Shown here piece after piece: positions 15,747 to 47,778 of a stretch of DNA of 64,000 nucleotides (the first letter of the stretch is position 1; the number at the start of each line of letters is the position of its first letter). The notes under the pieces were generated by a model. That model searched no databases. It was not told the DNA's origin and saw only the letters and a program-made list of their open reading frames with translations. Source of the stretch: Trypanosoma brucei (Eukaryota); contig CP000067.1 of the NCBI GenBank assembly GCA_000002445.1, positions 128,001 to 192,000 on the forward strand, in the 5' to 3' direction. Position numbers and translations under genes: made by a program.

Positions 15747-16165
15747 CGGATACCTTAGGTATACCACGAGGGGGTTGCGCCTCCGAGCACTAAACCAAAG
15801 GGCACAAGCATACGCGCACACAATAGGAGGCAGAAAAAGAAAAGTAGGAGAGGATGGGAATGTAAATGCGTAGACAACTTATACTAACGTGAATGCGCAG
15901 AGTAAGTCCAAAAATTTGATACTATCTACAATGCTCAGCCATGGGTCAGCAAATGCGCAAGCAAACATACGTGTAGAACACACTTCGCTTTGCTCCCACC
16001 CCACCCCCTCCGCACACAAATAAACAACCTCACAACTTCGGTCCGCACCATTGATTCAGGAGGAACCTCAAATCACCACCAACAGCTGTTCGTTTAGTAG
16101 ATGGCAGTCAAGAAAAAGGAACAAACAAGAAAGGAAGCGAAGAGAAATAGTCAAGTGTGTCGCTT

Positions 16166-29600: not shown

Positions 29601-32600
29601 TGACAGTCGACAGTTGCAACCATTGGGTCGCGGTATAGATCCTCCACAGAGAGGTCAGTGCAGGGTTCCACATCAAAAGTCCTATAGCAGTTGCTGGACT
29701 CATCGTAGTAAACATCTAGAGGATTCTTTGGATCAGGGAGTCGCTCCGACATCATGCTATGTATTTCCTTAGCATAATCCTTTCTGTACTCCTCCGTGAG
29801 ATATGAGCCCAAGCCATACACAAGGGCCAGAGCAAACTGTGCTTTACCAGTGCACCCCTGAAGTTGACTGAGTCCCGACGCAACCAAGCCAGTACGAGTG
29901 GTGTCAACAATTAACTTACCGGTGGCCAACAGAGCGTCAATCGCCTTGTAGAAGTAGTCATTAATCCATCTCTCCAACTTATCACGGACATCTTCGGGTT
30001 GCTCCACCAACCACGAGGTGACCATCATCTTGGGATCCACATCCTCCTCCGAAAGGTAAATAATACCCGTGCGTGAGACGGTTGCAGGTGACGCGAATTC
30101 CAGACTGTGCGTTTCAAATATGAAGTTTACGTTGTCTCCAAACTGAATACGCACACCATTCGGCATGGTAAGCAGTTTGTTGTCGTCCAACACTGAGTTT
30201 AGAGACTCCACCCACTCGGGGTCAATATCACCGTCGCAGACAATCCACGACAGTACGGAGGTTTCCTCCTTCACAACTTTACGAGCCGCCTCTGTAAGGA
30301 CACCATCGAACCACTCGCGAGTGTCGTTGTCCATGTAACCAAGCAACTGCGTACGCGGCAAGGCCTTAGGATTCATTATATACTGCGGAATAACCTTACC
30401 AAGTCGTTGCAGGGCGCGGCGAAGAATAAGAAGAAGCGTACTCTTTCCACTACCTCCAGGACCAACCAATACAACACCCATACGCTGTCTGAGGGCCTCG
30501 TACAGTTGAAGAACTTTCTGTATTTGTGCCTCCACAAGCTGCAACTTCAGTTCCTTAACAGATTCTTCAATAGCGGGACGTAGCTCAGCATAGTCAATCT
30601 CCTTTATCGGAGCGCCGGGGAATATGTCAGCGATAAGGTTGTTGTACAGCAGGGCATCATCGAAGGTAAGTTTGGAAAGTGTGTTGACACGTAATGATTT
30701 GATAATAATCTCACTTTCTTTTTCGAATATTTCCTCGGGACTGGGGTTGACTTTTCCACATGCACGTTCTGTAAGGTACTCATGAATTAACGTCCCACCC
30801 AGCCGCAGCACGGCCTTCATGGAACGCAGACCCCAATCGTAATGTGTTTGGAATGACAAGAGGTCTCTCGAGAGCTTAAAAACTTCTACCGTTTTCCGTG
30901 CCAAATCCACCGCATTTTCGAACCCCTCACTAAAGAGAATGGTACGTGTAATGAGTTCGTTATCTGGCACACTCATTGCGACTGAACGGAAGAGTTGCTT
31001 CAAGTTGTCGGGCAGTTTGCTACGGCCACCGTACCGCTTACCCGCAGGGTTTAACGTAACAAAAATACCGGCGTTTGAATCCACGTTGATTTCCTTCCCC
31101 ATGAGATGGCAACGAGGCTCACCATTCTTTATTGCTTCTTGAATCACTTGAATCATCTGCGACACTGCCGACAGTTGATCTACCTTAAGACGGTTAAACT
31201 CATCGAAACAACCCCATGCCCCACACTTGACAAGCCCAGTAAAGATACGACCCATGGATTTGAAGTCAATACCCTCATCACAGTTAAACACAAGCACCTG
31301 ACGACCCATCGCATTACCGAGTGCTTTAACAGACTCAGTTTTTCCTGTGCCCGCAGGTCCATATGGGTTACCACCGTAACCGAGTTGCATACCTTGCGTA
31401 AGCGTCAAATAGCAGCGGTCCGTCAGGGGCGTGTGCACAAGCTTGGGTGCATTACCCTGATACTCGTAACTGTACCGAAACTCCGCACCGACCATCCGGA
31501 GTACACAAGAATCACTGTAATCCATGTAAAAGCGGAGTTGCTTTCGCCACAACCAATCTGTATCCTTCTCAATACCAGCATCAATCAGGGCATCAACAAC
31601 TTCAATATTGTGAATAAGGTCCATAATGAGTGCTTTTACCTTCAGACCAATTACAACGTCACTGTTCCCACCAGCATACGTCGTCAATTCGCGTAGTTGT
31701 GCTTGAAGATTTGCCCTGTGTTTCTTTAACCCACCACTCTTAGCGTCCCGTATAGCATCTTCAGTCTGCTTGGTGAACGTGATCAAACCAGCCGTAGAGA
31801 GAATTTGAGACGAGTATGCGCCAATGTTTACCTTGTCAACACAACGTACTAAGTGTAATTTGAGTGTGTCCTTTACTGCAAGGTCTAACCTCCCCAACCA
31901 TTCTTCTACTTCCTCCGTGATCAAAACAGACTCTTCAATGGGCACCACCTCACCTTCAAGGGAATTGATTTGCAGGATGTGCTCCTTTGCATCGTCAAAC
32001 CGGACGCTGTGAACACCCATGAACAGTTTCTTCAGATGAGATTGAATGACAGAGGGATTGCGACTGTGGGCTAGAATCTCCAGCAAGTCATCATCGCTGA
32101 TAAAGTAGAAGCGCGGGAAACTATCACGTTTCGCCTCAAGAAATTGATTCAGCGCACGCTGACAGCGATCTAGCTGTTCCAACACAGTATACAGTACGTC
32201 CTTGAATTCCGTATGGCCTGCAAGGGAAACAAGACGACTATCAGCCGCGACAACCTTCATCACCTGCAAATACTCTTTATCAATCCTTGAAAAACGTTCC
32301 TGTTCCTGTGGAAGTGCACCACGGCGGAAGATAGGCTCAAGGTACACCCACTTGCGTTGAATTTGGCTCATATTACGGAGGTATTCATCAAGACAGGCAA
32401 GTCGCTCCTCCCATTTGTTTGCGTCGTTAGCAAAAATCCCAAAGTATGGAGACTCCTTCATACTCATTAAGAGTGCTTGGTTATCACTGAGAGCCGACAT
32501 CGTGTCCTTCCACTCTGTAATGAGTTTAACACCTTCACGATCTGGATGCGGAATAAGTGTAAATTTAGCATTGTTACCCCACGAACGCACATCGTCTAAA

Positions 32601-35600
32601 GCCTCACGGATCTGTGCCTCTCCTTGTGCCCGCGCATGAAGCTTCTTGAGATCTGCCTCACGCCTCAGAAGAGTTTCATGTTGATCTATAACGTCTCCAA
32701 ATTTCAGTGTGTCTTGTGTGACACCTCGCACTCCAATCAGGCTGAACATTTCTCCCCAGTGACTTGGTGTAAAACCGTCACCCCGAAGGTACTTCAATAC
32801 AGGTAGGCACCGCATCCAAGAGTCGAGAAGTGTACGGATGTGAACAGTTATTGGACTAGACGAAAACGTCCTCAACTGCTCTTCCCAGTGCCGCCCAAAA
32901 TCCTCGAAACGGTAGCACTTCGCACGCATGATTATCCATGGTTCCGCACGAAGCACATCCAACTCTTCCTGAAACTTGACCAATATGTCCCACATTTGGA
33001 CATATTCTTCAATGTCACGTTCGAGATCCTCCAGCTCCTCGATGTCTGGCTCATCCAGTTGAAAATACTTACACTGCTGGATGCACTCCTCACCCTCCGC
33101 CTTTAAGGCCTTGAACTGCTCTCGGCGTTCGGTTACAATCTTCATTGCGTTGGGGGTATCAACGGTCTTGGGTTTCACCTCATGCCACTGGTTAGAGAAC
33201 CGCTCAAGATTTTTCATCCATGCACTGACAGTGTCTTCGACGGACATCTTCAGTGAATCGACCTGTTTCTCCATTTCCCGCTCAAATGCATCAAGACGGC
33301 GGGTAACCTCATCCCACCGTTGCTTTACGCCACGAAAGTCAAAATCTGACTTATTTGCCATACTCTGAAGCAAAACATTCTTGTTATGCAAATGATGAAA
33401 CTCAACCTCCACTGCTGGTCGCTTCTCCATCAACTTGGCATGTTGGAGGTTAGCCGCACCGATCTCTTCAAGCTTCGTTAACCTAGCACCCAATGCAGTG
33501 GTTACTTCGGCGATGTACTCCTCAATCCTAGAAAGATTCTTCTGAGCGCTGTCCCGGAGTGTGACATGAAGTACCTGGGACAACTTGTGAAGATGATCTT
33601 CCACTGTACCCTTGACGCCTGCTGTACAGATCGTAATGCAACCGCATTTAATAAAGAGTTCTTCGGCATTAATTTCTTTACCCTTTTGCTTCAGCAAACG
33701 CACGCTCTGCTCCCAATGTTGCACCTCCTTCAGAGTGTGACCCACAATGTCCTCTAGTGATGGGTTTCCTCCTTTCCCACAGCGTCCGATAACAAGCAAA
33801 GGATGAAAACGCTTCAGCTCTTGTTGCACTTTCTTAAAAAGTTGCGCGGCATGCTTCATAACGGCAAAGATGCCGCGCTCATTGTTCCCTGGCATTGCGC
33901 CGAAGATATCGCTGTTACCGCACCCACGGAATCGAAGTGGGAACGTTATGAAGTCCTTTATCCTTTGATAGTACTGCCCACGTATAACATCTATATTGGG
34001 GCGCAGTGTAGCCAACCCAGTATCCGGATCGTACGTGATGTCCGCCTTAATCTCCGCAACAACTTCGTGAAGGCTCTCAAGGCCCAGTTGATATTGATGC
34101 TCTAGTGCCTTGTATATTTGCATATCCCAAAACTGCTTCCATGATTCCATATTGTTGAAGCCTGATGTTTCCATTTTCTCCCTGATGAGACGTACCTTCC
34201 CCGTCCAGCGCTCCCTCAATCGCAGGAGATCAATGCTGAACAGCTCGATCACAATTGACTCAATCTCCCTGTGCAGCTTGTGAAGCCGACGATTAGCATC
34301 AGTCAGCGCCTGAGATGCACGACGCAACTTGCCAATGAACCGCTCGGCGTCGTCCGTGTTCCTCCACGTCAACTTTCTGTCACCGCTTGCAGTAATAATA
34401 TTCTCAAAAGCCAGGGCAGGTTCAAGCAGCATCGCCTGCGTGCAAGGTATAATGTTCTCCTTCATGGAATTGTATGTACTGGCGACCTGCTTGAGCGCCA
34501 CACCGTTGCGGTAGAAACGGATGCCCTGATCCACCATCTCCTGTATGGCAGTGCTTATGCGAAACCCCAAGCTTCTGAATATACGCACCTCACGAATGAG
34601 TTGCACCAACCTCTCCGGGTAATTCACTCTCACACTACCGTCACCTGCAATGTCCATAAGTGGTGCATTCGCGTCAAGCATCAGCACATGCTTGCTACCC
34701 TCAACGTCCATTGTCCATTGTTTGAAAGTCTCAATCACATAATCGTCAATTTCTTCCATCAATGTGTTTGCTGAACGCAAAAACTCCCCTGCATTCTGCA
34801 AGTCGTTCAAAAGAGATTTGCACATTGAAATCATATCACTCGTTCGACCCCGAAGTTGTCGGAGCCAAATCATATTATTTACCACACCGGGCATAAAACG
34901 CCCCGCTTGGCAACGGCGGTCTTCTTCATCAAGAGCGACATCGTCCTCCACGCTTTCCGAACGCCGCTCGAATTCCATGCGAATGCTTTGAAGCCGCTCA
35001 TTCAACTTGGCAAGGAGGGCGTCACGCTCGTTCACAAGTTCCTTTGACACAGCAGGCCTTCGTATGAGCTGACGAAACTTCACCACTTCATTAAGAATCG
35101 TTTGTGGCGCCAAGTTGCCCCGCTCTCCAAAGAAGTCACTGAGAGCAGATGCACAACGATGCTCGACTGGCTGGAGGCGACGGTAAAAGGCGTCCAAACA
35201 ATTTGTCCACAACTGCTCTACAGCGGGAGTAGTAGCGAATATATCAAGGGAATCGAAGGTCTCCCATAATGTCTCCGTACGTAGCGACTGCAACTTGTCG
35301 GCGGCAGTAAGAAGTTCGACAATCTCATCCACCAAGTCGCGAATAGAAACGACAACACTCAACCGATCACGCACCGTTATCAGCTGAACGTCCTCGAATG
35401 CTGTACCCCATGAAGAACCCCAGTCAACTGTCGTGAGTCTTTTGCACATATTCACCCATTCATCACAGCAACCAAGTGCCACTTCAGTAATATTCTTCGA
35501 ACCGCTGAACACACCACCGGCGTCTAGTGTTTTCTTAGCAAAGTATTCCCGCAGGTTAGACCCCACAGTTTTCATGAGGAACACAACTTTTGTACGGATT

Positions 35601-36301
35601 GCTGTGTCCTGATCACTGTCATTCCAGAAGTCAGTTATTGCCATCTGCGCATCCTCTAACATGTCTGTGACATGCGACGGCTCCACACTGTCCATATTTC
35701 CCCATGCCTGGGAGAGAACAGTTTCAGCGAAGGAGGAGGTGCACATGCCCCCAAGGACACGACGAAGGGACTTCATGTACAACAAAACTTTCGTGTCGTC
35801 CTCCTCGCTAGATTGGAGGGAAAACAACACATAACCTGCAACGACCGTATCCAACCGTTGCCCCCCTCGGGGTGTGAGGCACTTGGGAAAATCTGAAACT
35901 TGGAACACCTGCAATTCCGAGTGCTTAATGAGGTAACGCATATACGTTACCTCAACCACAGAGGTTATAGGAGGGCTGTCACCGGGTAATTCGTTGAAAT
36001 CGAGGTCACGAACACGAACGGCCTCCGCAAACCGTAGAACAGTAAAGTTCTCCCGAGCATCAATGTTCACATCAGTTAAACCAACCTTAGTTGTTCCCGC
36101 CTCAGATCCACATGCCGCCTTGACGAAACCACTAAATAACGCAGCGGCAATTGGCGGACACTTCTCGCTTCCGACGGCAATCTGCAGCTCAACGACGTCG
36201 GAACGGCGGTTAGTTGAACTCACGGAGGCGCCCAACTGCTTGAGTGTTTCCCCTGCCACATCTACGCACACATCTGAAATATCCTTCTCTGCCGAAACCA
36301 T
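23603..36301 (-). CDS. DHC2: Dynein heavy chain, best match cytoplasmic dynein-2 (IFT retrograde motor) heavy chain
   Basis: 4232 aa with ATG at 36299-36301. Four P-loops: GPAGTGKTE (AAA1), GPGGSGKST (AAA2), GPEGCGKK (AAA3) and a degenerate AAA4. AAA1 context [33 protein letters not shown] matches the dynein-2 consensus ([32 protein letters not shown]) better than cytoplasmic dynein-1 ([25 protein letters not shown]). Stalk coiled coils and a C-terminal domain are present. Confidence 0.85.
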   Translation of the reverse strand: [4232 protein letters not shown]

Positions 36302-37136: not shown

Positions 37137-38933
37137 TTACAAACCTCCCTCACTCATTATTTGCTCCACTGCCCCGAGCACCACAGCAGCACATCGCGCC
37201 ATATCAACCCTCTGACACCTCTTAACTTGCGTAACTCCTCCAAGTGACTGTTCAAGCCAAAAAAGTGCAGGGAGCCCAATGAGCTCATGCGTGATGAGGC
37301 GCTCAAAGTTCGGTGAGTCCTTGCGATATCTCAACAAAGTTGATGTATCAAAACCAAATAATTCCTTACCGACAGATTCAAGGCCAAAAGCCCGCGCCGA
37401 TCGAATACCGTCCGACAACTCAAGTTGAACTAAAAAGCGCTCTTCCACCGACGCCTCAGGGCAGCTCGAGCATACGGAGGTTTCATTGCCAACTTTCCTT
37501 CCGCATGCAGAGCAGGCCGTATATGTCAGTGGATGTTTCACACCTTTTACCTTTGCTAGGACGGGTAGCGACTCGGATATTTCATCCAAATCAAAAACCA
37601 ACTGCACAATATCGGCGTTGTGTGTACCGCCTGCCACCTCCTCCTGTTTTGAAGTGTGTGGAGGCTGCTCCTCAGGGCGCTCATTACTGGCAACATCCAC
37701 CCGGCCTTTCGGGCTCATCACAAAGGCGCTACTTACACATCTACTAGAGGCAGTAATTCTACCACCGAAAATACGGACAAGAAAATTCGAAAAGCACCAC
37801 TGCTCACCAACAACTGGTACCACGATCGCCCCCATATCACCCCAGAGAGTTACTTCAATGGAATGCTGCAGGGAGTTTAGATCTCTCAACTCAACTACTG
37901 ACCTCCCAACATGTCCGTATCGCGTGTTAACTAATGTAGTTGGGGAGAACGCCGCCACCTCTCCATAAACGGAAACAATGTCCCCCACCTCGCAACACTC
38001 CACAAGGTACTGTACCGAACAAGAAAAAAACACGTACCGAGGATGCTTGGGAATAAGGTGTTCAGCTCCAGCACAGCATCCCGGAGTTGAAGACCAATCG
38101 AACACGTTCAGTTTTTCACTGTACCCGGATTCGCCTTTGTCCACAAAAGCAGGGTTTCGACATCGGATGCAATCACCAACATCAAACATATCACTAATCA
38201 CAGAACTGCCGAAGAATGACACAGAAACGGCGTCACCGTCAGCGTCGACTCCCACGCAATCCACAGCGAACCGCCCAAGTATTCCACTAGATGCAACTTG
38301 CCGTATTTTATTCTTCCACACCACGCGGAGGTAAACGACACAATCATTGAACCCTTTCCCCTCCGCTGTGACCACCTGTCGAATAGTCCGCGCGCCGTAG
38401 TCCCCAAGGGGAGTTGACTGCCACGTAGCGCTGCTGCTGCTGCACGTATTGGTGTAGCGGTATACAAGCGCGTTGGCTGAAAGACGGAAGAGATTGGAAT
38501 TAAATACTGGGTTTCCCAACAACGGGTACACTGTGTTAGAGTGGGTAATGGACAAAGGCACAACGACATTCCGCCCATTTCGGGCGGCAACTAAAGTGTA
38601 CTCTCTCAGCTTCACGCAATAACCGATTTCTATTTGAAATGTACTGACAAGTTCTTCCATCCCAGTGGAAGGGGGAATCACTAGCCATATCAGTGAGAGG
38701 GTGTCTGATAATGCGAGATAAAACAGCGATTGAGTAGAAGATTGCACTACTCTTTCCGGAAACCGTTGAATGTCAATTACCTGCAGCGAGGGGTTAGGCC
38801 ATCGTAACGTGAAAGTTTCACCACGGGAATCACCCGAAAGAGGGGCCGTCAGTGCGCTTTCGCAGAATCCTGTCGTTAATTGGAACATGTCTTCTTTGCC
38901 TTTGACTGTGTTTATGCAAAATAACTCGGCCAT
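37137..38933 (-). CDS. RPA1 (RPA70)-like OB-fold protein with C4 zinc ribbon; RPA1 paralog or related ssDNA-binding protein
   Basis: The track start is GTG. The first ATG is at 38931-38933 (MAELFCINTVKGKEDMFQLTTGF...), giving 599 aa. Several OB-fold-like blocks (GDIVSVYGEVAAFSPTTLVNTRYGHVGRSVVELRD...IEVTLWG). YTACSACGRKVGNETSVCSSCPE...RFLVQLELSDGIRSARAFGLESVGKELFG resembles the RPA70 DBD-C Cys4 ribbon and following segment. Confidence 0.45.
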   Translation of the reverse strand: MAELFCINTVKGKEDMFQLTTGFCESALTAPLSGDSRGETFTLRWPNPSLQVIDIQRFPERVVQSSTQSLFYLALSDTLSLIWLVIPPSTGMEELVSTFQIEIGYCVKLREYTLVAARNGRNVVVPLSITHSNTVYPLLGNPVFNSNLFRLSANALVYRYTNTCSSSSATWQSTPLGDYGARTIRQVVTAEGKGFNDCVVYLRVVWKNKIRQVASSGILGRFAVDCVGVDADGDAVSVSFFGSSVISDMFDVGDCIRCRNPAFVDKGESGYSEKLNVFDWSSTPGCCAGAEHLIPKHPRYVFFSCSVQYLVECCEVGDIVSVYGEVAAFSPTTLVNTRYGHVGRSVVELRDLNSLQHSIEVTLWGDMGAIVVPVVGEQWCFSNFLVRIFGGRITASSRCVSSAFVMSPKGRVDVASNERPEEQPPHTSKQEEVAGGTHNADIVQLVFDLDEISESLPVLAKVKGVKHPLTYTACSACGRKVGNETSVCSSCPEASVEERFLVQLELSDGIRSARAFGLESVGKELFGFDTSTLLRYRKDSPNFERLITHELIGLPALFWLEQSLGGVTQVKRCQRVDMARCAAVVLGAVEQIMSEGGL

Positions 38934-39193
38934 GCAAAAAAAAAAAGACGTGAGGGAGGCCACGAAAGTGGTAGCACCAAGTGCAATCAGTATAAAATAT
39001 CCAAAAAAAATACCTCAACCAGGGCACGTAGACGAAACGAATAGAATGCAAAATAAGTTAGAAGACATTCCAACTACAGATTTTCTTTCTTTAAAAGGAG
39101 CGAGGAAAATCCGTCACTATATATCTAGTCAACAACATAATTTCCCAATCTATGGTTTTCATGAACAATGAATTAAAGAAATTGAAACTGGGG

Positions 39194-40474
39194 CTAATGC
39201 GTCATGCGACGTGACACATCAAAGGGATACGGCTGTGGGCACAATTCGCGAGGAGCTGGGACGGCAGCAGAGCTCTCTACAACGGCTCCATGACTTGGGA
39301 GTGGAAACGCAAGCCGATCTAGCAGCTGCGCAAACATAGGCGATGGTTCACCACGGGTCAGCTCCCCTGTAAAGTTTGACACTGATTCAAAACTGGTGTT
39401 GCAAGTGGGAGTTTCTGAGGAAACAACTGCATCTGTTAAGGGTGAAAGCGCACCAGTCCTGTCAAGAGACAATTCCTTAGTTGTTTTCTCCAATTTAGAA
39501 TGGCACATATCACCTGAAACTGGGGTGCTAACCACCGCACCCTTTGAACAGCACGATGCTTCCACTGGCCGAGAGGCAATCCCATACCGAATTGTACCTG
39601 CGGAAGACGACCGTAATCCAGAACGGTAAACTTTTCCCCGGGGCGGAAACTCCACATTCGACGCATCAACAGCCTTTGCATGGGTGAGAGTTACTTCACT
39701 AACCGTCCTGCGGTGTTGCGACCGCGGTGGATTCTTAAATGCATTTGCTCCTGTTCTTTCAGTCCCTGACGTATCTTTGTTCTGCTGGGAATGTGAAACC
39801 TCGGTTGTTTTTTGCCCCTCCGCCTGCACATTTGTAGAGTGTTTGGATTTGGTCCTTGCCCCGATGCGTCTCAACAGCTTACGGCGAAGTGGTGACGATG
39901 AAAACATAGATGATTTTTTGTATGCAGTGGTGCACACCGCTAGTTCATCTTTGTACACATGGAACGCACTACCTTGCTGCTTGCTAGGGACTGACAAGGA
40001 GGCCGCCGCTCGCACCGTTTCCTTATGCTGCGGATACGGTTCCTTCTTCACAATGCTACCTTCCCCCTTCGTTCCACAGTAACGCTTCATTTGCTTGTTC
40101 CACACAGAAACTGGGGCCATAAACCAAGGTAGGTTTTCCTTTCCCCCCTGTGGTGGCCCCTGTGCTTCACACAATTCAAGAGAGTACCTCTGGAGCTCCG
40201 ACATTTCAGACTTTTCTAACTGTTTATGGGAGTTTCTACAACGTACACTACATTCTCTTTCACCCAGCTTAGATTGTGTTGACGGGCCGGAGAATGTTGA
40301 CTTTTGTGATGGTGCTCGCATAAGACCCGCCCTTGTGGTTGCCGCTCGCAGGCGCTGCCGGCACTCTTCACGCATCTTCTGCCGCCACGCTATCAAGTCT
40401 TGTTGAACCATCGATTCCTCACCACAACATTCCGCCGCTTTGGTCTTTTGCGAGGGCACCACACCATTTACCAT
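39194..40474 (-). CDS. Hypothetical protein (426 aa), Ser/Thr/Arg-rich, no recognised domain
   Basis: The track start is TTG. The first ATG is at 40472-40474 (MVNGVVPSQKTKAAECCGEES...). Same orientation and spacing as neighbours, but low-complexity composition lowers confidence. Confidence 0.45.
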   Translation of the reverse strand: MVNGVVPSQKTKAAECCGEESMVQQDLIAWRQKMREECRQRLRAATTRAGLMRAPSQKSTFSGPSTQSKLGERECSVRCRNSHKQLEKSEMSELQRYSLELCEAQGPPQGGKENLPWFMAPVSVWNKQMKRYCGTKGEGSIVKKEPYPQHKETVRAAASLSVPSKQQGSAFHVYKDELAVCTTAYKKSSMFSSSPLRRKLLRRIGARTKSKHSTNVQAEGQKTTEVSHSQQNKDTSGTERTGANAFKNPPRSQHRRTVSEVTLTHAKAVDASNVEFPPRGKVYRSGLRSSSAGTIRYGIASRPVEASCCSKGAVVSTPVSGDMCHSKLEKTTKELSLDRTGALSPLTDAVVSSETPTCNTSFESVSNFTGELTRGEPSPMFAQLLDRLAFPLPSHGAVVESSAAVPAPRELCPQPYPFDVSRRMTH

Positions 40475-41129
40475 CCTCCACCGGCCAACGACGCCGTTGT
40501 TTACACGGTTACGGGTGGAAAATGCAGTCGTAGGTAGCACTAATGAACAACGGGCCAAGTGAAATGAGGGTATGAGGAAAATAAAAAGATGGTCGAGTCA
40601 GCTGCAAGTTTGGAGGGAAATTGCGTGGAGTGATGGAACAAAACTGCCTAACCTAACAATGCCGGGTTAAAACTTATAAGTCAGCGACGATATACTGTTG
40701 TTGTTTTTCTTCTTGGTTCCTCATTTTTGTGTTTTTTTTTACTAAAAAAGAAAAAATGACGATCCACCGTTAGTTGCGCCCGCTGCCTTCACGGTAATGT
40801 CCTCTTTAACCTTTCCTTAAGTTAACGCTGCACATACACACACGCACAGAAACAGACTCTTCCTTTCTTTTCCACCCAAATGGAGGGCTCCGCTTTCACC
40901 CTTCCATCGAACCCGCACGGTACACACTCCAGAAAACCTTCGAACTGCTCGCATGCGCCACTGCTGACTAACAGAGACAGTCCACACCTCAACCACTACT
41001 TTCTCTCGCTTTCCTTCACCCAGAAATGACTCGTCAGGAATTTTCAGCAAAAACAGAAAAACGTACACATACACACATCGCAACCAAGGCGACGACATGT
41101 TAATCCCGAGAAGTCAATATCTCTCGGGA

Positions 41130-43586
41130 TTATCGCCACAGTTGTCTCACACCTTTACGCATGGCAAAGTAGCGTGCCACAAGGGAAAGGACACCAAAGC
41201 TGCATGTAAGAGCTATCAGCAGAGTCTTGTTGAAATCACTGTTAAGGAGGTCAAACTCCTTTCCAGAAGAGGTGCGCACGTAAAAGAGGTCCATACCTGA
41301 AACGAGTACATGGCAGGAGCTTTCAAGATTTGTTGGTCGCGTTGCAATTAGAGTGGGACGTGCCGCTCGATACCTGTGGGTAACTATAGCAGTGCTCGGA
41401 ATGATCACATGTGTTAACTGCCCGGCGCCGTCACCTAAGGAAACCTGCCCACCAGCAAGTAGACGGTTAAGCCCCACGGAGGCAACCCTCCCGGACGTAA
41501 ACACAAACAGAAGACTTTTTCGTGCGATGGCGCCGAAGGACGTCGTGACGCTCATTTTGGCAACCCCACCGCCGTGCATACCGAGCACAGATCCTACCAC
41601 AACAGGTGGCCATGTAGCACGGGAACTGAATACGCGCTTGTGCCGGGAGAAAAACGATGAGATCACCTGAGGTGGTGTGGCACCCGTATCCTTGAAAAGT
41701 ACTGGGCCAACCTCGGTTTCAAACATCTCCCACACGCCAAGGGAATGGCGCATCTTTTCCACATCCATAAAGTGGTAAAGCACAGCGTGCTCCACAATGA
41801 GGATATGCACCGGTCCTTCTACATTTCGATGACGCATGGACGCAAGAACGCTTCCTGTGACAACATCGACAGCTGTTACAACAAGAGTTGGCATCTCGTC
41901 GTCAACGGGCTCGTAGTACGCCACTGCGAGGACGTTGCGCGTTGGAAACTTGCGACGTACCTCCTCCATACCACTGCTTTTATTCGGAAACACACGAATA
42001 TTATTCACCAATGAAGTGCGGAGTGCATCCTCACCCGTAGCAACGGCAATAATGGGAAATGGCAGTTGCACGGTCCAGAGTGGCGTCACAGACGGAGATG
42101 ATGAGGCTAGATAACCCTTGATGGTTCCCGTTGTCATATTCAAACTGAATACGTGCAACTTGGAATGGGGGATTTTTCCGTTCACCGCAAGCGAACGCTT
42201 GACGTCAAATGTAGGTGCAACAATCAGTGAGTCTTCGTGCTTTGTTGCCTCTACCACAGCACCGGTGACGACATTTAAAATTACCCGAATCTTAACCACA
42301 CCAAAAGAAGCGAATAAAGTAGCAGTATCCGCTCCGGATACCTCTAATTTTTCGAACGCTATATTCTCCACGGAAGCGGCGGTTGTCATCTCCAGCACAG
42401 TTTTAGATACATCGACAAGCACCTTCATGTTACTTCCCATTTCTGCCAGAGGAATCATATATACTACGCCACGTGTAGAAATTCCCAAGGCTTCTTTTGA
42501 CAAACCAAACCGATCTTCCTTCGATGAACTGTCAAGTACAACTACCGCCGCGAGTCTTGAAAGGCCTTCCCACCGTTCCCACTTCACCCCTCCGTTCTCT
42601 CGCACCACAACAAGATGGTCATTGGGTGCGCGAACGAGAGCCCATGCGCCGTCTCCATCGCCCTGCACAGCAAGAAGTATAGCGGGAGCACCTTTTGTCC
42701 CGCCCTTTAAAGGAACGTGAATACTCTTAGCAGGGAACTTAACCATGAAACCGTTGGGATCCGCCTGGCCGATTACGTATCCCTGAAACACGCCAGCCGG
42801 GTTTGTCATAACCGACGCAGCACAACCACTACAGTCAATTACTTCCTGTTCCACAGCGCCGTTTGTCTCGCGTTGAGGGCCATGTCTTACAAGTGTTACC
42901 TTGTGTGAAGAATATGCAACTGCCTCGGCCGAAGAGGTAACGTCAATACCACCCACAGCATCAACGCCTGTAATTTCGACCGCACCCTTAAGGGAGTAGC
43001 GATCGGCAGATAACCGTCGCACCACCCAAAGGTGAGCGTCGCTAAGGCGTAGGCCCTTCACGTCCTCCCCAATGGGAAATTGACCGAGAGTCTTAACTTC
43101 TTCGTCATCAGAATTCATATCTAACTCGAAGATATGTGCGTTTTTACCGTCGAAGGCGGCAAATCTCGCCTTACTATTTGTGATGCTTTTACACGACTCC
43201 ACGTCTGCGCCGGCTGGCAAGAGCAATTTGAAAGTGGTTTCTACTGCTCCAGTCCCTGCGTTAAGAACGTGCACTGCTCCTGACCGGGAGGAGACAAAGA
43301 CAGAGCCGCCAGTTACTCCAATGCACACACGTGGTTCGCTAAAAACTTTCCTCCACAGTAACTCTCCGCTGTCAAGGGAAAGTGCGGCAACCGCCCCCTG
43401 AGCAGACCTTATGTACACGTTGTTAAGTTTCAGCTTAGGATGCAGTGCGGCGCCCTCCACCTGGCCGACAAAGCGCAAAATCCAGTCACGTAACCCCTGC
43501 TCATCTTCATGTATGGCTTGGATTGGAACAATGAGTCCACAAATGAGGCACAACTTGAGCAACAGAAAGTATAAAGTGGGCCGCAT
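41130..43586 (-). CDS. EMC1: ER membrane protein complex subunit 1 (EMC1)
   Basis: 818 aa with N-terminal signal peptide. IHEDEQGLRDWILRFVGQVEGAALH...SAQGAVAALSLDSGELLWRKVF matches EMC1 (YEDQVGKFDWRQQYVGK...KNVIAALNSRTGEILWRHV). C-terminal TM helix LLIALTCSFGVLSLVARYF. PQQ-like beta-propeller content. Confidence 0.7.
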   Translation of the reverse strand: MRPTLYFLLLKLCLICGLIVPIQAIHEDEQGLRDWILRFVGQVEGAALHPKLKLNNVYIRSAQGAVAALSLDSGELLWRKVFSEPRVCIGVTGGSVFVSSRSGAVHVLNAGTGAVETTFKLLLPAGADVESCKSITNSKARFAAFDGKNAHIFELDMNSDDEEVKTLGQFPIGEDVKGLRLSDAHLWVVRRLSADRYSLKGAVEITGVDAVGGIDVTSSAEAVAYSSHKVTLVRHGPQRETNGAVEQEVIDCSGCAASVMTNPAGVFQGYVIGQADPNGFMVKFPAKSIHVPLKGGTKGAPAILLAVQGDGDGAWALVRAPNDHLVVVRENGGVKWERWEGLSRLAAVVVLDSSSKEDRFGLSKEALGISTRGVVYMIPLAEMGSNMKVLVDVSKTVLEMTTAASVENIAFEKLEVSGADTATLFASFGVVKIRVILNVVTGAVVEATKHEDSLIVAPTFDVKRSLAVNGKIPHSKLHVFSLNMTTGTIKGYLASSSPSVTPLWTVQLPFPIIAVATGEDALRTSLVNNIRVFPNKSSGMEEVRRKFPTRNVLAVAYYEPVDDEMPTLVVTAVDVVTGSVLASMRHRNVEGPVHILIVEHAVLYHFMDVEKMRHSLGVWEMFETEVGPVLFKDTGATPPQVISSFFSRHKRVFSSRATWPPVVVGSVLGMHGGGVAKMSVTTSFGAIARKSLLFVFTSGRVASVGLNRLLAGGQVSLGDGAGQLTHVIIPSTAIVTHRYRAARPTLIATRPTNLESSCHVLVSGMDLFYVRTSSGKEFDLLNSDFNKTLLIALTCSFGVLSLVARYFAMRKGVRQLWR

Positions 43587-44086: not shown

Positions 44087-45040
44087 CTATTCCTCCCCAC
44101 CTGTTGTCTCACCTAACAATTCCATCGCCTCGAGTAGAGTACGAGTGACAGCAGGTCCCTGAGCGCTAAGACCACTGATCCCGCCGCTGCGGTCACCCTC
44201 GAATAGTACAAATTTGGCTTTGGGAAAATGCTTCATAAAATCGCTCTTCGCCTCTCCTGAGAACTCCTCCGAGCCGCACTGAATGACTGTCACGGGTTTT
44301 GTGAAAATATTTTCCGGTCCCACATCGCTAAACCCACATAATGGCCCACGAAACTGAAACAACGTCTCGTTGAACTTAAATCCCACAGTTCCCTCCCGCT
44401 GCTCCACAGTCGAAAGAATAAGTGCCCTCTCCGCCTCATTAGGCACTCTTTTGTGCAAATGATGTTCGAGATCTGCGACGGAACTTATTTCTTTCGGGAT
44501 ATCTGAAATAAAAGAGGGAAGGGAGTAACGTGCCGGCTCACATGCCAGCAGATCTGATGGCCCATTTACAATAAGCACAAGGGAATCGATACCTGATTCA
44601 GGAGAGTGCAGTGCAGCCTGGCATGCGACAAGCGCACCAAACCCAATTCCAACCAACTTGGCATCCGCACGCAAGACTTGCTGTTGCAGAAGCATAATAT
44701 CAGCTGCACACGCCATTGTGAAGGCACGCCCTTCTTCGGGGCAGGGAAGTGATTTGGAATGGTTATGTCCCCGAAAGTCCACAGCAAATAACTCCAGTGG
44801 TACAAGTGGTGTAAGACCCGAACACGGTAATCTCCCGAGACTCTCATGCAAAAGCATTTGCCAGTAAGCAGAACTGCCGAACAGATCATGCAGAAGAATT
44901 GCTTTACTGGGCTTCCGGGAGTCGAGGTGCCACTTGAAGGTTGAAAGCCCATAATTCACCGGAAAGGGTCTTTCTTTAATTGGCAATGATGCAGAAGCAG
45001 CAACGTGGCCCCTCGAAAGCATGCGATTGATTACATTCAT
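44087..45040 (-). CDS. ABHD11-like alpha/beta-hydrolase fold protein with degenerate catalytic motifs (probable pseudo-hydrolase)
   Basis: The track start is TTG. The first ATG is at 45038-45040 (MNVINRMLSRGH...), giving 317 aa. LLHDLFGSS corresponds to the oxyanion HGLFGS motif. The nucleophile elbow reads VGIGFGALV instead of GHSMGG (Ser to Gly). No clear C-terminal catalytic His. Confidence 0.6.
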   Translation of the reverse strand: MNVINRMLSRGHVAASASLPIKERPFPVNYGLSTFKWHLDSRKPSKAILLHDLFGSSAYWQMLLHESLGRLPCSGLTPLVPLELFAVDFRGHNHSKSLPCPEEGRAFTMACAADIMLLQQQVLRADAKLVGIGFGALVACQAALHSPESGIDSLVLIVNGPSDLLACEPARYSLPSFISDIPKEISSVADLEHHLHKRVPNEAERALILSTVEQREGTVGFKFNETLFQFRGPLCGFSDVGPENIFTKPVTVIQCGSEEFSGEAKSDFMKHFPKAKFVLFEGDRSGGISGLSAQGPAVTRTLLEAMELLGETTGGEE

Positions 45041-46020
45041 GTTGTACGACTCGCAGCTGCTAAATCTTGGACCAAACAAGATTAATTGTTGGAATGGTGC
45101 TTCCCAATTATTCTGTTTTCTTTTCTCGAAAATCCAGCCGATGACACAACAACTCTACTTGCAACCCTCTCGGTACACAGAACCAAACTCGTCCCCCTTT
45201 CCTTGTACCCCTTGTTGATCTCAACAATTGTTGCAAATTATAAAAGTGAAATAAAAAGTAAAAAAAACATAACGCCTCAAAAAGATTAACGGAAATTTGT
45301 CTCGCATTCAAACGTAAAACGCAAACGCAGAAGTTAAAAATGTGAAGGAAGAAAGAGGAGGAAAAAAAACGAGCAAACTTAAAACGCAACAGTGAAGTGG
45401 GTGCTACTAGTAGTTAACCCGTGATTCTGCCCGCACACGCGAATGGGCATACCTATCCCCACATCCTAACCAGCACTGAGTGCTTAAACTGCGGGTAAAT
45501 CAAAAAAAGAAAGAAAGAAGCATAACCAAAAAAAAGTGAAAGGAGTCTCTTTTATACCAACGACCCGCAACACGCCAACAGGTATTGGTTATTCTCATGT
45601 AACTTCTCCCACACTCTTGCATGCACGTCACATCCTCCTTCTGAATATCCTCTAACCCCCTGTCGCCTCCAACCACAAAATAACATCCGAAATCTAATGT
45701 GAATGAGCCGGAACCTTCGCTCCAGAAAAGGGAGCTGAACGGATTTTCCTTCCAGAGACAACTAAAAGCCTCAACAATGCAACGCACTTGCGAGAAGCAT
45801 GAGGAAGGAGGAGAGTTTTTTTTCCCCCGTGAAAAGCGCCCCGTGTCGACGAAACACTGCAACGCTAAAAATAAAAAAAAAACGCCCTCGTATGAATAAA
45901 TACAAAATACAATACACACGCAAACTTTCGCATCGCGGGCCCAGGAAACGTTTTCGGAAAGTTTATTGCGCAACTATATGCAGCATTCCACTACCCGCCT
46001 TCTTTTTTCTTTTATGATTC

Positions 46021-47436
46021 TCACTGAGAACCCTCCTCCGGCGGAAAAGTTGGAACCGTCAGTGCCGAACTGATCTGCAAAATGCGCGCACTCCAACCTT
46101 CATCGATGAAAAGAAATGTACCTATTCTTCCAAGCTTATGGGCAACAGCAGCCAACACTTGCGCTTGGTGTGGAATGCAGAACTTTTCGTATTGCTCAGT
46201 AAACCGTGTGTATCCATCCGCGACACGTTGTTTTAATGATTCCCGATGCGCCTCCCCTTCGGTATCGTCCCTCCCGGGGGCAGGTTGGGCTAAAGCGTTT
46301 GATTCCATCTTTTTGAGCTGCGTAGCAGCATTGATGCAGGAAATTGAAAGATGGGAAGCAAACCAAAGCAAATCGCCAACCTCCCTCAAGCCTTCAGCCT
46401 CTTCCTTTTTGCTCAGATACATGAGATGGGAATCAATTTGTTCTGTTATTGCATGAAGGGCTAACATTACCGGGTCGCTCACACCCGATGACGGATATCT
46501 GAGGTCGGCTACAGGGACACGGGACATCCCTCCCTCACGATCGTTCCACTCAATTACCGCCGTGTTCCGATCTATGCTCTTCACCACACCCTCACGCCCA
46601 CCGTTCGCCTCATACCGAACGAAACATCCCTCGTGACATGCAGCGGCGGGAAGGGGAGCTCCAGCCGTCCGCTTGCATATATTCCGAGTACTTCTCCGTT
46701 TGGATGGTTCACCTACAAACCGCCTTGTCATTTTTTCCACGACGGCGCCGCACATCTGTAGAAGCCGCACCATTTCGCCATGTTGCACGAGGATGGAGCT
46801 AAGACGGGAAGAGACGGGACCTTCTTGTTCCCGCACCATCGCGAAACTGCTTAGTTTTCCAAGGAGGCCCAAACACTTCATTTTCACAATAGAAAGTAGA
46901 GAATTTTTCCTTGCTGCCTCCCACGAATCGCGGAACTTTCTCCATCCGTCTTCGTCAAGCGTTGTGAAAGCCTTCATTAACTCACATTCATGAATCGCAC
47001 CGATATGGGATATGGCATTAAGAGTCAGTTGAAGTCGCCTTAGCCGTTGTCTTACCAGTGAGTTCTTCTTTGCGTCAAGGCCACTCACACCGTCAAAGTG
47101 CGCTGTAAGTTTGTCGATCGTCCCATTGACTTCCTTCTCTGGAATGGGTGGAAAGATTATACCTGGAAACTCTGTCAGCATCTGTGTAGCAAACCACTCA
47201 AAATCGGAATAACGATGCCATGTGCAATAGTCGATGTAGCCATCGCCTTTAATAAAGTTGCTCTGCGTACTGTTTGGGAAAATGAGAGGCGGATTCTGGT
47301 AACTTTCCAGAAAGCTGCGCGTCATCATTTTATACGTCCAGTGAGAAAAGAAGAGGACCTTATCATTCTCAGCGAACACGCGCTCCGCATTTGCAACATA
47401 GAACTCCAGCGGTGGCTGAGCGGGGTTTTCGGACAT
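46021..47436 (-). CDS. Sorting nexin (PX-domain protein, probably SNX-BAR type)
   Basis: The track start is TTG. The first ATG is at 47434-47436 (MSENPAQPP...), giving 471 aa. PX-domain signature RYSDFEWFATQMLTEFPGIIFPPIPEK (R[RY]SDF...L...PG..PP.P.K). Helical remainder consistent with a BAR region. Confidence 0.65.
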   Translation of the reverse strand: MSENPAQPPLEFYVANAERVFAENDKVLFFSHWTYKMMTRSFLESYQNPPLIFPNSTQSNFIKGDGYIDYCTWHRYSDFEWFATQMLTEFPGIIFPPIPEKEVNGTIDKLTAHFDGVSGLDAKKNSLVRQRLRRLQLTLNAISHIGAIHECELMKAFTTLDEDGWRKFRDSWEAARKNSLLSIVKMKCLGLLGKLSSFAMVREQEGPVSSRLSSILVQHGEMVRLLQMCGAVVEKMTRRFVGEPSKRRSTRNICKRTAGAPLPAAACHEGCFVRYEANGGREGVVKSIDRNTAVIEWNDREGGMSRVPVADLRYPSSGVSDPVMLALHAITEQIDSHLMYLSKKEEAEGLREVGDLLWFASHLSISCINAATQLKKMESNALAQPAPGRDDTEGEAHRESLKQRVADGYTRFTEQYEKFCIPHQAQVLAAVAHKLGRIGTFLFIDEGWSARILQISSALTVPTFPPEEGSQ

Positions 47437-47778
47437 TGCTCTTTGTTCAAGTTGTGAATGAGAGTGCGGCAAGGGGAGAACAAGAAAAAAAATGGGTTGG
47501 CGTGAGGAAAAAACAAAAACGAGTACAAGCCCTACGTTCGGTGCCGTTTCGTCTCCACTCCGTTCTCCCTTTCTATGAGTCCATCCACCTTTATCACGGG
47601 AGTCACGGCCTCATATACAATTGGACCATACCTGACACCTCGGGACTGCAGAACCACGGACACTTGTCGACAGTTTACATAAACACAACTGAGAGCAACA
47701 TTGCCACAGCAGGTGGAGTACGAATTCGGTAAGTCCCCTGGACTCTCAACATAACAAGTACAGAGGTATCTCCCTCCT

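What the first reader, a model, noticed from the sequence alone, without database searches (positions are those of the whole stretch)
37137..38933. RPA70-like OB-fold protein with Cys4 zinc ribbon: RPA1 paralog, CST/CTC1-like or meiosis-specific ssDNA binder?
The protein has multiple OB-fold-like blocks. It also has a C-x2-C...C-x2-C ribbon (CSACGRKVGNETSVCSSCPE) followed by a segment resembling RPA70 DBD-C. It is 599 aa, with an N-terminal region unlike the canonical trypanosome RPA1. Such paralogs in other eukaryotes serve telomere (CST) or meiotic (MEIOB) functions.
Basis: inference. Interest (0 to 1): 0.5.

Follow-up and report, generated by a model that had tools for sequence, protein, structure and literature searches.

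The report
Second, full-length RPA70 paralogue in trypanosomes
This Trypanosoma brucei gene (Tb927.4.570) encodes a very diverged second copy of the large subunit of replication protein A that keeps the N-terminal protein-docking domain missing from the parasite's standard RPA1, and it co-purifies with RPA2, so it probably forms an alternative RPA complex that nobody has studied.

Summary
Window 37137..38933 (minus strand) is a real, conserved gene of 598 codons, T. brucei Tb927.4.570 (UniProt Q57ZY5). The true start is probably Met16.

Profile, profile-profile and structure comparisons all show a full-length RPA70 architecture: a 70N-like OB fold, DBD-A, DBD-B, and DBD-C with a Cys4 zinc ribbon and a C-terminal amphipathic helix. 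RPA70 is the best match by every method. CTC1, Stn1 and MEIOB are not supported.

Orthologues occur throughout Trypanosomatidae. They form one long-branched clade separate from the canonical short RPA1, which lacks 70N.

Conservation is inverted relative to normal RPA70. The N domain is the best conserved and DBD-A the worst. The DBD-B stacking aromatics and the zinc ligands are close to invariant.

In a published native YFP-RPA2 purification from bloodstream forms, this protein ranks third by significance (−log10 p). It sits just below RPA1, above the bait, and above RPA3. It is not listed among telomere-repeat or 70-bp-repeat purifications. No paper found discusses it.

Best reading: it is an alternative RPA large subunit that shares RPA2 (and probably RPA3) and supplies a 70N-type docking module. 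It is a new, uncharacterised member of a known kind, of moderate interest.

The parts
37137..38933 (-). Annotated CDS of Tb927.4.570 (598 aa plus stop), an RPA70/RPA1 paralogue
   Evidence: ORF listing. 99% identical to T. b. gambiense XP_011772617, and in the same 90% cluster as the TREU927 protein XP_844207 / Q57ZY5. Q57ZY5 = Tb927.4.570 in the supplement read.
38936..38958 (-). Polypyrimidine tract directly upstream of the first ATG. The first downstream AG (38926/38925) is a probable spliced-leader acceptor lying after that ATG.
   Evidence: Sequence read. Inference from the known rule for trypanosome trans-splicing (first AG after a poly-Y tract). Not verified with RNA data.
38529..38888 (-). 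RPA70N-like OB fold (residues 16-135), beginning at the probable true start Met16. It is the most conserved domain of the family; Q56, Y72, S76 and D77 are invariant or nearly so.
38394..38528 (-). Flexible N-A linker (residues 136-180)
   Evidence: pLDDT below 50 for residues 161-175. Aligns with the human RPA70 N-A linker.
38049..38393 (-). DBD-A-like OB fold (residues 181-295), the least conserved domain. The F238 equivalent (F241) is variable. The F269 equivalent falls in a 4-residue deletion.
   Evidence: hhalign. Profile hit to RPA70 AB structures 1jmc/1fgu at about 1e-6. Foldseek 1jmc_A E=4.8e-12. Residue columns.
37710..38048 (-). DBD-B-like OB fold (residues 296-408). The ssDNA-stacking aromatics are conserved: W364 corresponds to human W361 and F389 to human F386.
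37599..37709 (-). Disordered, acidic and proline-rich B-C linker (residues 409-445)
   Evidence: pLDDT below 50 for residues 411-441. About 11% identity between species.
37140..37598 (-). DBD-C-like OB fold (residues 446-598)
37461..37514 (-). Cys4 zinc ribbon C474-x2-C477...C488-x2-C491. These correspond to human C481, C486, C500 and C503.
   Evidence: Translation. C474 and C477 are invariant in 34 sequences; C488 is Cys in 32 and C491 in 33, with His in T. vivax. Alignment to human.
37149..37202 (-). C-terminal amphipathic helix (residues 578-595). It is equivalent to the RPA70 helix that forms the three-helix bundle with RPA32 and RPA14.
   Evidence: Predicted helix 578-595. Conserved hydrophobic positions 578/579, 582, 585/586, 589, 592/593. 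Aligned to the human C-terminal helix.

Best explanation
Tb927.4.570 is a highly diverged but complete paralogue of the RPA large subunit (RPA70/RPA1). It has a 70N-type OB fold, DBD-A, DBD-B, and DBD-C with a zinc ribbon and a C-terminal helix.

Proposed mechanism: its DBD-C and C-terminal helix dock onto the same RPA2 (and probably RPA3) used by canonical RPA1. This would give a second, less abundant RPA-type heterotrimer. That complex would still contact ssDNA through DBD-B and DBD-C, whose key residues are retained, but with a weakened DBD-A. Its main selected function would lie in the N-terminal domain, a protein-docking module that canonical trypanosomatid RPA1 lacks.

Shown here: the homology, the architecture, the residue conservation, and the co-purification with RPA2 in proliferating bloodstream forms. 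Inferred: direct heterotrimer formation, ssDNA binding, and a recruitment or adaptor role for the N domain.
For: Homology and architecture:
- Family profile against PDB: human RPA70 at E=2.4e-19 over residues 34-593 (human 22-612), and Ustilago RPA70 at 7.5e-16.
- hhalign of the family against a canonical RPA70 profile: probability 100%, E=3.8e-48, 544 columns, collinear from end to end.
- AF2 model with pLDDT 83 and four OB folds.
- Foldseek top hits are RPA70 (3.5e-20 and 4.4e-20), ahead of RADX, CTC1 and Teb1.

Residues:
- The four zinc-ligand positions are Cys in at least 32 of 34 sequences. The DBD-B stacking positions (W364, F389) are aromatic in all 34.
- The C-terminal helix keeps a heptad-like hydrophobic pattern.

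Partner:
- In a native anti-GFP purification of YFP-RPA2 from Lister 427 bloodstream forms, Tb927.4.570 has -log10 p = 6.26. That compares with RPA1 7.29, the bait RPA2 5.43 and RPA3 5.19.

Selection:
- The family is conserved across Trypanosoma and Leishmaniinae.
- It is monophyletic in 99/100 NJ bootstraps.
- The N domain is the most conserved domain: 46% mean identity, against 31% for DBD-A. This is the reverse of canonical RPA70 (N 25%, A 37%).

Literature context:
- Canonical trypanosomatid RPA1 lacks 70N.
Against: - Co-purification does not prove a shared heterotrimer. No nuclease treatment is described in the method passage read, so bridging through ssDNA or chromatin is possible. The table gives p-values, not stoichiometry.
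- The basic cleft that binds acidic peptides in human 70N is only partly kept. R43 is replaced by an invariant Tyr, R31 by a nearly invariant Gln, and R41 is Leu in T. brucei although Arg in most orthologues. The classical ATRIP/RAD9-type ligands cannot be assumed.
- DBD-A has lost or varies its stacking aromatics, so ssDNA affinity may be low.
- No phenotype, localisation or DNA-binding data were found.
- The gene is absent from the held MMS-sensitivity RNAi screen tables.
Confidence: 0.6

Rival explanations
1. It is an independent RPA-associated ssDNA-binding or adaptor protein, comparable to RADX. On this view it does not replace RPA1 in a trimer. It would meet RPA either on the same ssDNA or by binding the canonical RPA trimer.
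For: - RADX is among the top Foldseek hits (E=2.3e-15).
- No nuclease treatment is described for the RPA2 purification. That purification also recovers many chromatin and repair proteins: FACT, histones, PIF7, Topo III, RMI1 and a SMARCAL1-like protein.
- RPA1 is more significant than the paralogue in the same purification.
Against: - The whole DBD-C, including the C-terminal amphipathic helix used for trimerisation in RPA70, is retained and conserved.
- RPA70 is a better match than RADX at both sequence and structure level.
- Its significance in the RPA2 purification is comparable to the genuine subunits and above every other repair factor.
Confidence: 0.2
2. It is a telomere-dedicated RPA-like large subunit. 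It would be analogous to Tetrahymena Teb1 (which works with RPA2/RPA3-type subunits) or functionally to CTC1/Cdc13. It would fill the gap left by the missing POT1/CST in trypanosomes.
For: - Reviews state that no TPP1, POT1 or CST homologue has been identified in T. brucei and that structural analysis might reveal OB-fold candidates.
- Teb1 has the same N-A-B-C layout and works with RPA2/RPA3-type subunits. This last point is from my own knowledge of the Tetrahymena literature and was not checked here.
Against: - Tb927.4.570 occurs only once in the stored part of the TALE proteomics file, in the RPA2 sheet. It is therefore not listed among proteins enriched with YFP-TRF, the telomere-repeat TALE or the 70-bp-repeat TALE compared with untagged cells. 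The main text reports RPA1-3 with both TALEs, and RPA2 alone with YFP-TRF.
- It is absent from the held TelAP1/TelAP2 supplementary tables.
- By sequence profile, RPA70 (2.4e-19) far outranks Teb1 (1.2e-5, OB-A only) and Tetrahymena p75 (0.35).
Confidence: 0.1
3. It is a meiosis-specific ssDNA binder of the MEIOB type.
For: A weak Pfam OB_MEIOB_N match (E=0.047 in this protein; 2 of 29 orthologues, best 7.6e-4).
Against: - That Pfam domain is itself a DBD-A homologue, and the RPA families score much better.
- The protein has a 70N domain and a zinc ribbon. MEIOB has no 70N (my own knowledge, not tested here).
- It was detected by mass spectrometry in monomorphic bloodstream forms, which do not undergo meiosis.
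Confidence: 0.03

Closest known systems
Eukaryotic RPA70 / RPA1 (human RPA1, yeast Rfa1, Ustilago RPA70)
   Same: - Same four OB folds in the same order, with flexible N-A and B-C linkers.
- Cys4 zinc ribbon in DBD-C.
- DBD-B stacking aromatics (W361/F386 equivalents).
- C-terminal helix.
- Co-purifies with RPA2.
   Different: - Only about 16% identity over the profile alignment, and a long branch outside all canonical RPA1s sampled.
- The zinc ribbon's first pair is C-x2-C rather than C-x4-C.
- DBD-A is degenerate: the F269 region is deleted and the F238 equivalent varies.
- The 70N basic-cleft residues are partly replaced (R43 to Y, R31 to Q).
- The conservation pattern is inverted: N is best conserved and A worst.
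Canonical trypanosomatid RPA1 (Tb927.11.9130; Leishmania RPA-1)
   Same: Same organism and same partner RPA2. Both carry DBD-A, B and C.
   Different: - The canonical protein is about 467 aa and lacks 70N (P0126 is a probable orthologue).
- The paralogue shows no special affinity to it. P0126 scores only 2.3e-8 against the paralogue profile, and the two groups clustered together in 0/100 bootstraps.
- Per the paper's main text, canonical RPA1-3 are enriched at telomere and 70-bp repeats. The paralogue is not listed there.
Lineage-specific RPA1 paralogues that share small subunits: Arabidopsis RPA1A-E, Plasmodium RPA1L/RPA1S, Tetrahymena Teb1
   Same: The principle is the same: more than one large subunit, sub-functionalised, on an RPA2/RPA3-type platform. 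Papers listed cover the plant and Plasmodium cases. Teb1 structures are matched.
   Different: - This is an independent duplication with no specific sequence relationship.
- Here the split appears to separate a 70N-less bulk RPA1 from a 70N-bearing diverged copy.
- No plant-type C-terminal zinc-knuckle extension was seen.
- No telomerase link is shown.
CTC1/Cdc13 (CST) and MEIOB
   Same: All are multi-OB-fold relatives of RPA70. CTC1 appears in Foldseek at about 1e-12 to 1e-13.
   Different: - No profile-level similarity to CTC1 or Stn1.
- It differs in size and domain number from CTC1.
- It has 70N and a zinc ribbon and is expressed in mitotic cells, unlike MEIOB.
- Its detected partner is RPA2, not Stn1/Ten1 or SPATA22.

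Membership tests
RPA70 / RPA1 large-subunit family | Significant sequence-profile similarity along the whole length | tested here: met
   Family profile against human RPA70: E=2.4e-19 over 34-593 / 22-612. hhalign probability 100%, E=3.8e-48. Caveat: the T. brucei sequence alone stays below Pfam gathering scores (22.8 against 28.5 bits for Rep_fac-A_C).
RPA70 / RPA1 large-subunit family | Four OB folds in the order 70N, DBD-A, DBD-B, DBD-C | tested here: met
RPA70 / RPA1 large-subunit family | Cys4 zinc ribbon inside DBD-C | tested here: met
   C474, C477, C488 and C491 align to human C481, C486, C500 and C503. C474 and C477 are invariant in 34 sequences; C488 is Cys in 32 and C491 in 33, with His in T. 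vivax.
RPA70 / RPA1 large-subunit family | Base-stacking aromatic residues in DBD-A (F238, F269) and DBD-B (W361, F386) | tested here: inconclusive
   The DBD-B pair is conserved (W364, F389). In DBD-A the F238 equivalent is F in T. brucei but varies across the family, and F269 falls in a 4-residue deletion. It was checked only for the expected residues at those positions and against the 8rk2_A alignment.
RPA70 / RPA1 large-subunit family | Heterotrimer with RPA32/RPA2 and RPA14/RPA3 through the C-terminal helix | tested here: inconclusive
   A conserved amphipathic C-terminal helix is present. The protein co-purifies with YFP-RPA2 together with RPA3. Direct binding and exclusion of RPA1 have not been shown, and no multimer prediction was available.
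RPA70 / RPA1 large-subunit family | Binds single-stranded DNA | not testable with these tools
   This needs EMSA or fluorescence anisotropy with recombinant protein or complex.
CST large subunit (CTC1 / Cdc13) | Profile similarity to CTC1/Cdc13 | tested here: not met
   No CTC1, Cdc13 or Stn1 Pfam hit at E<=10. Human CTC1 is absent from the profile-versus-PDB hits, and Tetrahymena p75 scores E=0.35.
CST large subunit (CTC1 / Cdc13) | Association with Stn1/Ten1 | not tested
   No Stn1 or Ten1 homologue was searched for, and no reciprocal purification of this protein exists. The only partner evidence found is co-purification with RPA2.
CST large subunit (CTC1 / Cdc13) | Telomere association | tested here: not met
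   It is not listed in the YFP-TRF or telomere-repeat TALE enrichment sheets held, nor in the TelAP2 study supplements. This is a weak negative, because low abundance could hide it.
Teb1-type telomerase RPA paralogue | RPA70-like N-A-B-C architecture | tested here: met
Teb1-type telomerase RPA paralogue | Works with RPA2/RPA3-type small subunits | tested here: inconclusive
   The protein co-purifies with RPA2, and RPA3 is recovered in the same purification. A direct shared complex has not been shown.
Teb1-type telomerase RPA paralogue | Telomerase holoenzyme membership and sequence-specific binding of the telomeric G-strand | not tested
   No telomerase purification data were examined. DNA-binding specificity would need a biochemical assay.
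MEIOB | Three OB folds without 70N | tested here: not met
   The protein has a 70N domain, and the only MEIOB hit is weak (E=0.047). That MEIOB itself lacks 70N is my own knowledge and was not tested here.
MEIOB | Meiosis-restricted expression | tested here: not met
   The protein is detected in monomorphic bloodstream forms.

The most novel reading that the evidence does not exclude
Trypanosomatids have split the two jobs of RPA70 between two genes. The short, abundant RPA1 would coat ssDNA. Tb927.4.570, a 70N-bearing paralogue sharing RPA2 and RPA3, would be the platform that recruits checkpoint and repair factors such as ATR-pathway, 9-1-1 or RecQ/Topo III-type proteins. This would answer the long-standing question of how these parasites signal from RPA-ssDNA when their RPA1 has no 70N domain.
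Probability: 0.3. Interest if true: 0.7.

Novelty: new member of a known kind. Interest (0 to 1): 0.5.

Why it matters
Papers on trypanosomatid DNA replication and repair state that RPA1 in these parasites lacks the 70N protein-interaction domain. They treat the RPA1-RPA2-RPA3 trimer as the only ssDNA-binding complex.

A conserved second large subunit that carries a 70N-type domain and co-purifies with RPA2 changes that picture. It offers a concrete, testable candidate for three things:
- how damage signalling and repair factor recruitment work in these organisms;
- whether two RPA complexes divide replication and repair between them;
- possibly, VSG recombination. This link is speculative: the protein is not listed in the 70-bp-repeat purification.

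It also bears on RPA1-targeted drug work (the JC-229 inhibitor paper, listed but not read). A diverged paralogue could buffer or modify inhibition.

[quoted passage not shown] RPA1 paralogues are also known in plants, ciliates and apicomplexans. The kind of thing is therefore not new; the member and its odd conservation pattern are.

Tried and rejected
- Single-sequence phmmer against PDB gave only chance-level hits: ferredoxin reductase at E=0.033 and ribosomal L37e zinc ribbons. These were discarded once profiles were available.
- The first AF2 run, with 6 sequences, was unusable (pLDDT 46.8). It was replaced by the 29-sequence run.
- The search for homologous proteins with the alignment added nothing because of the word-index limit.
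- The afdb50 fold library was unavailable.
- NJ phylogeny on the A-B-C region (428 columns, 139 sequences) shows that the family is monophyletic. It cannot place its origin, because distances are saturated: mean paralogue-to-canonical distance 3.08, against 1.58 within canonical sequences. I therefore make no claim on when the duplication happened, or on which copy is 'ancestral'.
- Genomic context was examined (DHC2.1, EMC1, PX, GRIP, alpha/beta hydrolase, FHA-BRCT). I rejected it as functional evidence because trypanosome polycistronic units are not functional operons.
- Text searches for the gene ID, the accessions and 'RPA1-like' in trypanosomes found no paper that discusses the protein.
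- Supplement searches were negative or the files were not held: TelAP1, chromatin factor interactome, PolIE, TelAP2, MMS RIT-seq.
- The second-ranked protein in the RPA2 purification, Tb927.3.5620, was checked as a possible novel partner. It is the FACT subunit Spt16.
Full report
**1. The observation**

The window is Trypanosoma brucei chromosome 4. All long ORFs lie on the minus strand.

The flagged interval is a minus-strand ORF. Its ATG is at 38933 and its stop at 37137-37139, giving 598 aa; an upstream GTG would give 608 aa. It is 99% identical to a T. b. gambiense 'hypothetical protein, conserved'. It falls in the same 90% cluster as T. b. brucei TREU927 XP_844207 / UniProt Q57ZY5, which sits on a 1,590,432-bp record.

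The flanking genes confirm the location:
- the 4232-aa dynein heavy chain downstream is DHC2.1, Tb927.4.560;
- the EMC1 homologue two genes upstream is Tb927.4.590.

The quoted C-x2-C...C-x2-C motif is at residues 474-491.

**2. What it is**

On its own, the T. brucei sequence gives only sub-threshold Pfam hits. They are collinear with RPA70:
- Rep-A_N at residues 47-125;
- a DBD-A-type hit at 203-266;
- REPA_OB_2 at 314-369;
- Rep_fac-A_C at 467-544 (E=8.3e-5).

An exhaustive HMM search found 29 cluster representatives at E<1e-30, a distinct orthologue family. Below them is a long tail of canonical full-length RPA70s.

Among 29 family members, Pfam detects:
- REPA_OB_2 in 14 (best 5.7e-9);
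- Rep-A_N in 13 (best 9.8e-8);
- Rep_fac-A_C in 8 (best 2.6e-11).

The 29-sequence profile hits full-length human RPA70 at E=2.4e-19 (residues 34-593 against 22-612) and Ustilago RPA70 at 7.5e-16. Lower hits are archaeal RPA, Teb1 (1.2e-5, OB-A only) and Tetrahymena p75 (0.35). Human CTC1 and Stn1 do not appear.

hhalign of a 21-sequence family alignment against a 62-sequence canonical RPA70 alignment gives probability 100%, E=3.8e-48 and 544 aligned columns, collinear from end to end. I checked it for the expected residues at known positions and against the printed 8rk2_A alignment.

With the 29-sequence alignment, AlphaFold2 gives a confident model: mean pLDDT 83, four OB folds, two disordered linkers and a C-terminal helix at residues 578-595.

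Foldseek ranks the hits in this order:
- RPA70 first (9pd4_N at 3.5e-20, 4gop_C at 4.4e-20);
- RADX (about 1e-15);
- CTC1 (about 1e-12 to 1e-13);
- Teb1-AB (about 1e-11).

- the Teb1 domains are close behind.

**3. Residue-level anatomy**

From the hhalign mapping and a 34-sequence family alignment:
- The zinc ligands C474, C477, C488 and C491 correspond to human C481, C486, C500 and C503. They are nearly invariant: C474 and C477 in all 34 sequences, C488 in 32, and C491 in 33 with His in T. vivax.
- The DBD-B stacking residues W364 and F389 correspond to human W361 and F386. Both positions are aromatic in all 34 sequences (W364 in 33, F389 in 32).
- In DBD-A, the F238 equivalent (F241) varies, and F269 falls in a 4-residue deletion.
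- In the N domain the hallmark '...(R)FY.A.SD...' segment aligns with human 'RYRLLMSD'. S76 and D77 are invariant.
- The basic cleft is remodelled. R43 becomes an invariant Tyr72. R31 becomes Gln56 (32 of 34 sequences), followed by a mostly conserved Arg57. R41 is Arg in most species but Leu in T. brucei.

Mean pairwise identity by domain is N 46%, B 39%, C 33% and A 31%. Canonical RPA70 shows the reverse order: A 37%, B 32%, C 28% and N 25%.

The C-terminal helix keeps a heptad-like hydrophobic pattern.

**4. Distribution and evolution**

Named orthologues exist in T. cruzi, T. vivax, T. conorhini, T. rangeli, T. grayi and T. melophagium. They also occur in several Leishmania species, Porcisia, Leptomonas, Novymonas and Lotmaria. 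There are also unnamed environmental sequences, for example a 912-aa relative on a contig from ENA metagenome assembly ERZ1292630.

Nearly all are annotated as hypothetical. A few are mis-named 'ATP synthase epsilon chain'.

In an NJ analysis of the A-B-C region the family is monophyletic in 99/100 replicates. It lies on a very long branch and shows no affinity to the probable short canonical kinetoplastid RPA1, P0126. The timing of the duplication cannot be resolved with these data.

**5. Functional evidence from the literature**

Papers on trypanosomatid RPA state that RPA1 lacks 70N and that the RPA subunits are the only ssDNA-binding-protein orthologues identified. A 2023 review notes that no POT1, TPP1 or CST homologue has been found. 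No paper text in the library mentions this gene or its accessions.

One supplementary table does contain it. It belongs to a 2026 eLife paper (PMC12975129) and reports a native anti-GFP purification of YFP-RPA2. Conditions were 0.2% NP-40, 150 mM KCl and brief sonication, with no formaldehyde mentioned, from monomorphic Lister 427 bloodstream forms. The top of the list by -log10 p reads:

| Protein | -log10 p |
|---|---|
| RPA1 | 7.29 |
| Tb927.3.5620 (FACT subunit Spt16) | 6.39 |
| Tb927.4.570 | 6.26 |
| RPA2 (bait) | 5.43 |
| RPA3 | 5.19 |

The paper's text does not comment on this protein.

The ID occurs only once in the stored part of the file, which covers the sheets up to the RPA2 sheet. 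It is therefore not listed among proteins enriched with YFP-TRF, the telomere-repeat TALE or the 70-bp-repeat TALE compared with untagged cells. [quoted passage not shown] The ID is also absent from the held TelAP2, chromatin-factor and MMS-screen supplements.

**6. Interpretation**

The protein is a bona fide RPA70 paralogue, with very high confidence.

The most likely mechanism (about 0.6) is an alternative large subunit that uses the same RPA2, and probably RPA3. The retained DBD-C and helix, together with the co-purification, point that way. The inverted conservation pattern suggests that its selected function centres on the N-terminal docking domain rather than on high-affinity ssDNA binding through DBD-A.

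Three rivals remain:
- An RPA-associated but independent ssDNA binder or adaptor of the RADX type (about 0.2). This cannot be excluded, because no nuclease treatment is described for the purification.
- A telomere-dedicated Teb1- or CST-like role (about 0.1). Its absence from telomere proteomes and the sequence ranking both argue against this.
- A MEIOB-like meiotic role (about 0.03). The architecture and the expression in non-meiotic cells contradict it.

**7. Start codon**

Orthologues begin at the position of T. brucei Met16. A long polypyrimidine tract (38958-38936) directly abuts the annotated ATG. There is no AG between about 39015 and 38926, so the first candidate spliced-leader acceptor (38926/38925) lies after the annotated ATG. 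Residues 1-13 are also predicted to be disordered. The real product probably starts at ATG 38888 and is 583 aa. This is an inference and needs spliced-leader read mapping.

**8. Novelty and score**

RPA1 paralogues that share small subunits are known in plants, Plasmodium and Tetrahymena. The gene also already carries a domain-level annotation. This is therefore a new, uncharacterised member of a known kind, not a new kind.

It is nevertheless relevant to an open question in the field: how RPA-dependent signalling works in trypanosomatids without 70N. It makes that question directly testable. Interest is 0.5.

Noticed in passing
window 38886..38958 (-): The annotated start codon (38933) is probably not used. 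A polypyrimidine tract abuts it, the first downstream AG is at 38926/38925, and all orthologues start at the equivalent of Met16 (ATG 38888). The T. b. brucei / T. b. gambiense difference T9I lies in this possibly untranslated stretch.
   Followed up: partly
window 14454..15821 (-): A 455-aa ORF with an FHA domain (E=2e-8) and a weak BRCT match (E=6.7e-4). This is an Nbs1- or PNKP-like damage-response architecture in the same polycistron.
   Followed up: no
window 23603..36301 (-): A 4232-aa dynein heavy chain immediately downstream of the target. By gene order it is the IFT dynein DHC2.1 (Tb927.4.560).
   Followed up: partly
window 41130..43586 (-); also 44087..45079, 46021..47472, 57080..58468, 59983..62046, 20745..22292 (all -): Neighbouring genes have unrelated functions: EMC1 (Tb927.4.590), an alpha/beta hydrolase, a PX-domain protein, a GRIP-domain protein, a Casc1_N (axonemal IC138-like) protein, and a Fam20C-like kinase domain. 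The context gives no functional clue.
   Followed up: partly
window 39194..40558 (-): The 454-aa ORF directly upstream of the target (by numbering, Tb927.4.580) has no Pfam match. It looks Ser/Lys/Arg-rich and possibly disordered.
   Followed up: no
window 47884..55395 (-) and 3219..6797 (-): Two large ORFs (2503 aa and 1192 aa) were not examined.
   Followed up: no
Orthologues P0154, P0155 (Lotmaria passim) and P0173 (Leptomonas pyrrhocoris): Public records name these RPA70 paralogues 'ATP synthase epsilon chain'. This looks like an annotation error that has propagated between genomes.
   Followed up: no
Orthologue P0003 (T. vivax), position equivalent to C491: The fourth zinc ligand is His instead of Cys (C-x2-H). 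It is the only such change among the named trypanosomatid orthologues.
   Followed up: no
PMC12975129, supplementary sheet 1j (YFP-RPA2 purification): The same purification also recovers a RecQ-like helicase (Tb927.11.12600), PIF7, Topo III, an RMI1-domain protein, a SMARCAL1-like protein, DUF2779 protein Tb927.11.6830 and a YqaJ-like recombinase-domain protein. Some of these could be ligands of the paralogue's N domain. Separately, the paper's text once labels Tb927.11.9130 as RPA2, although it is RPA1.
   Followed up: no
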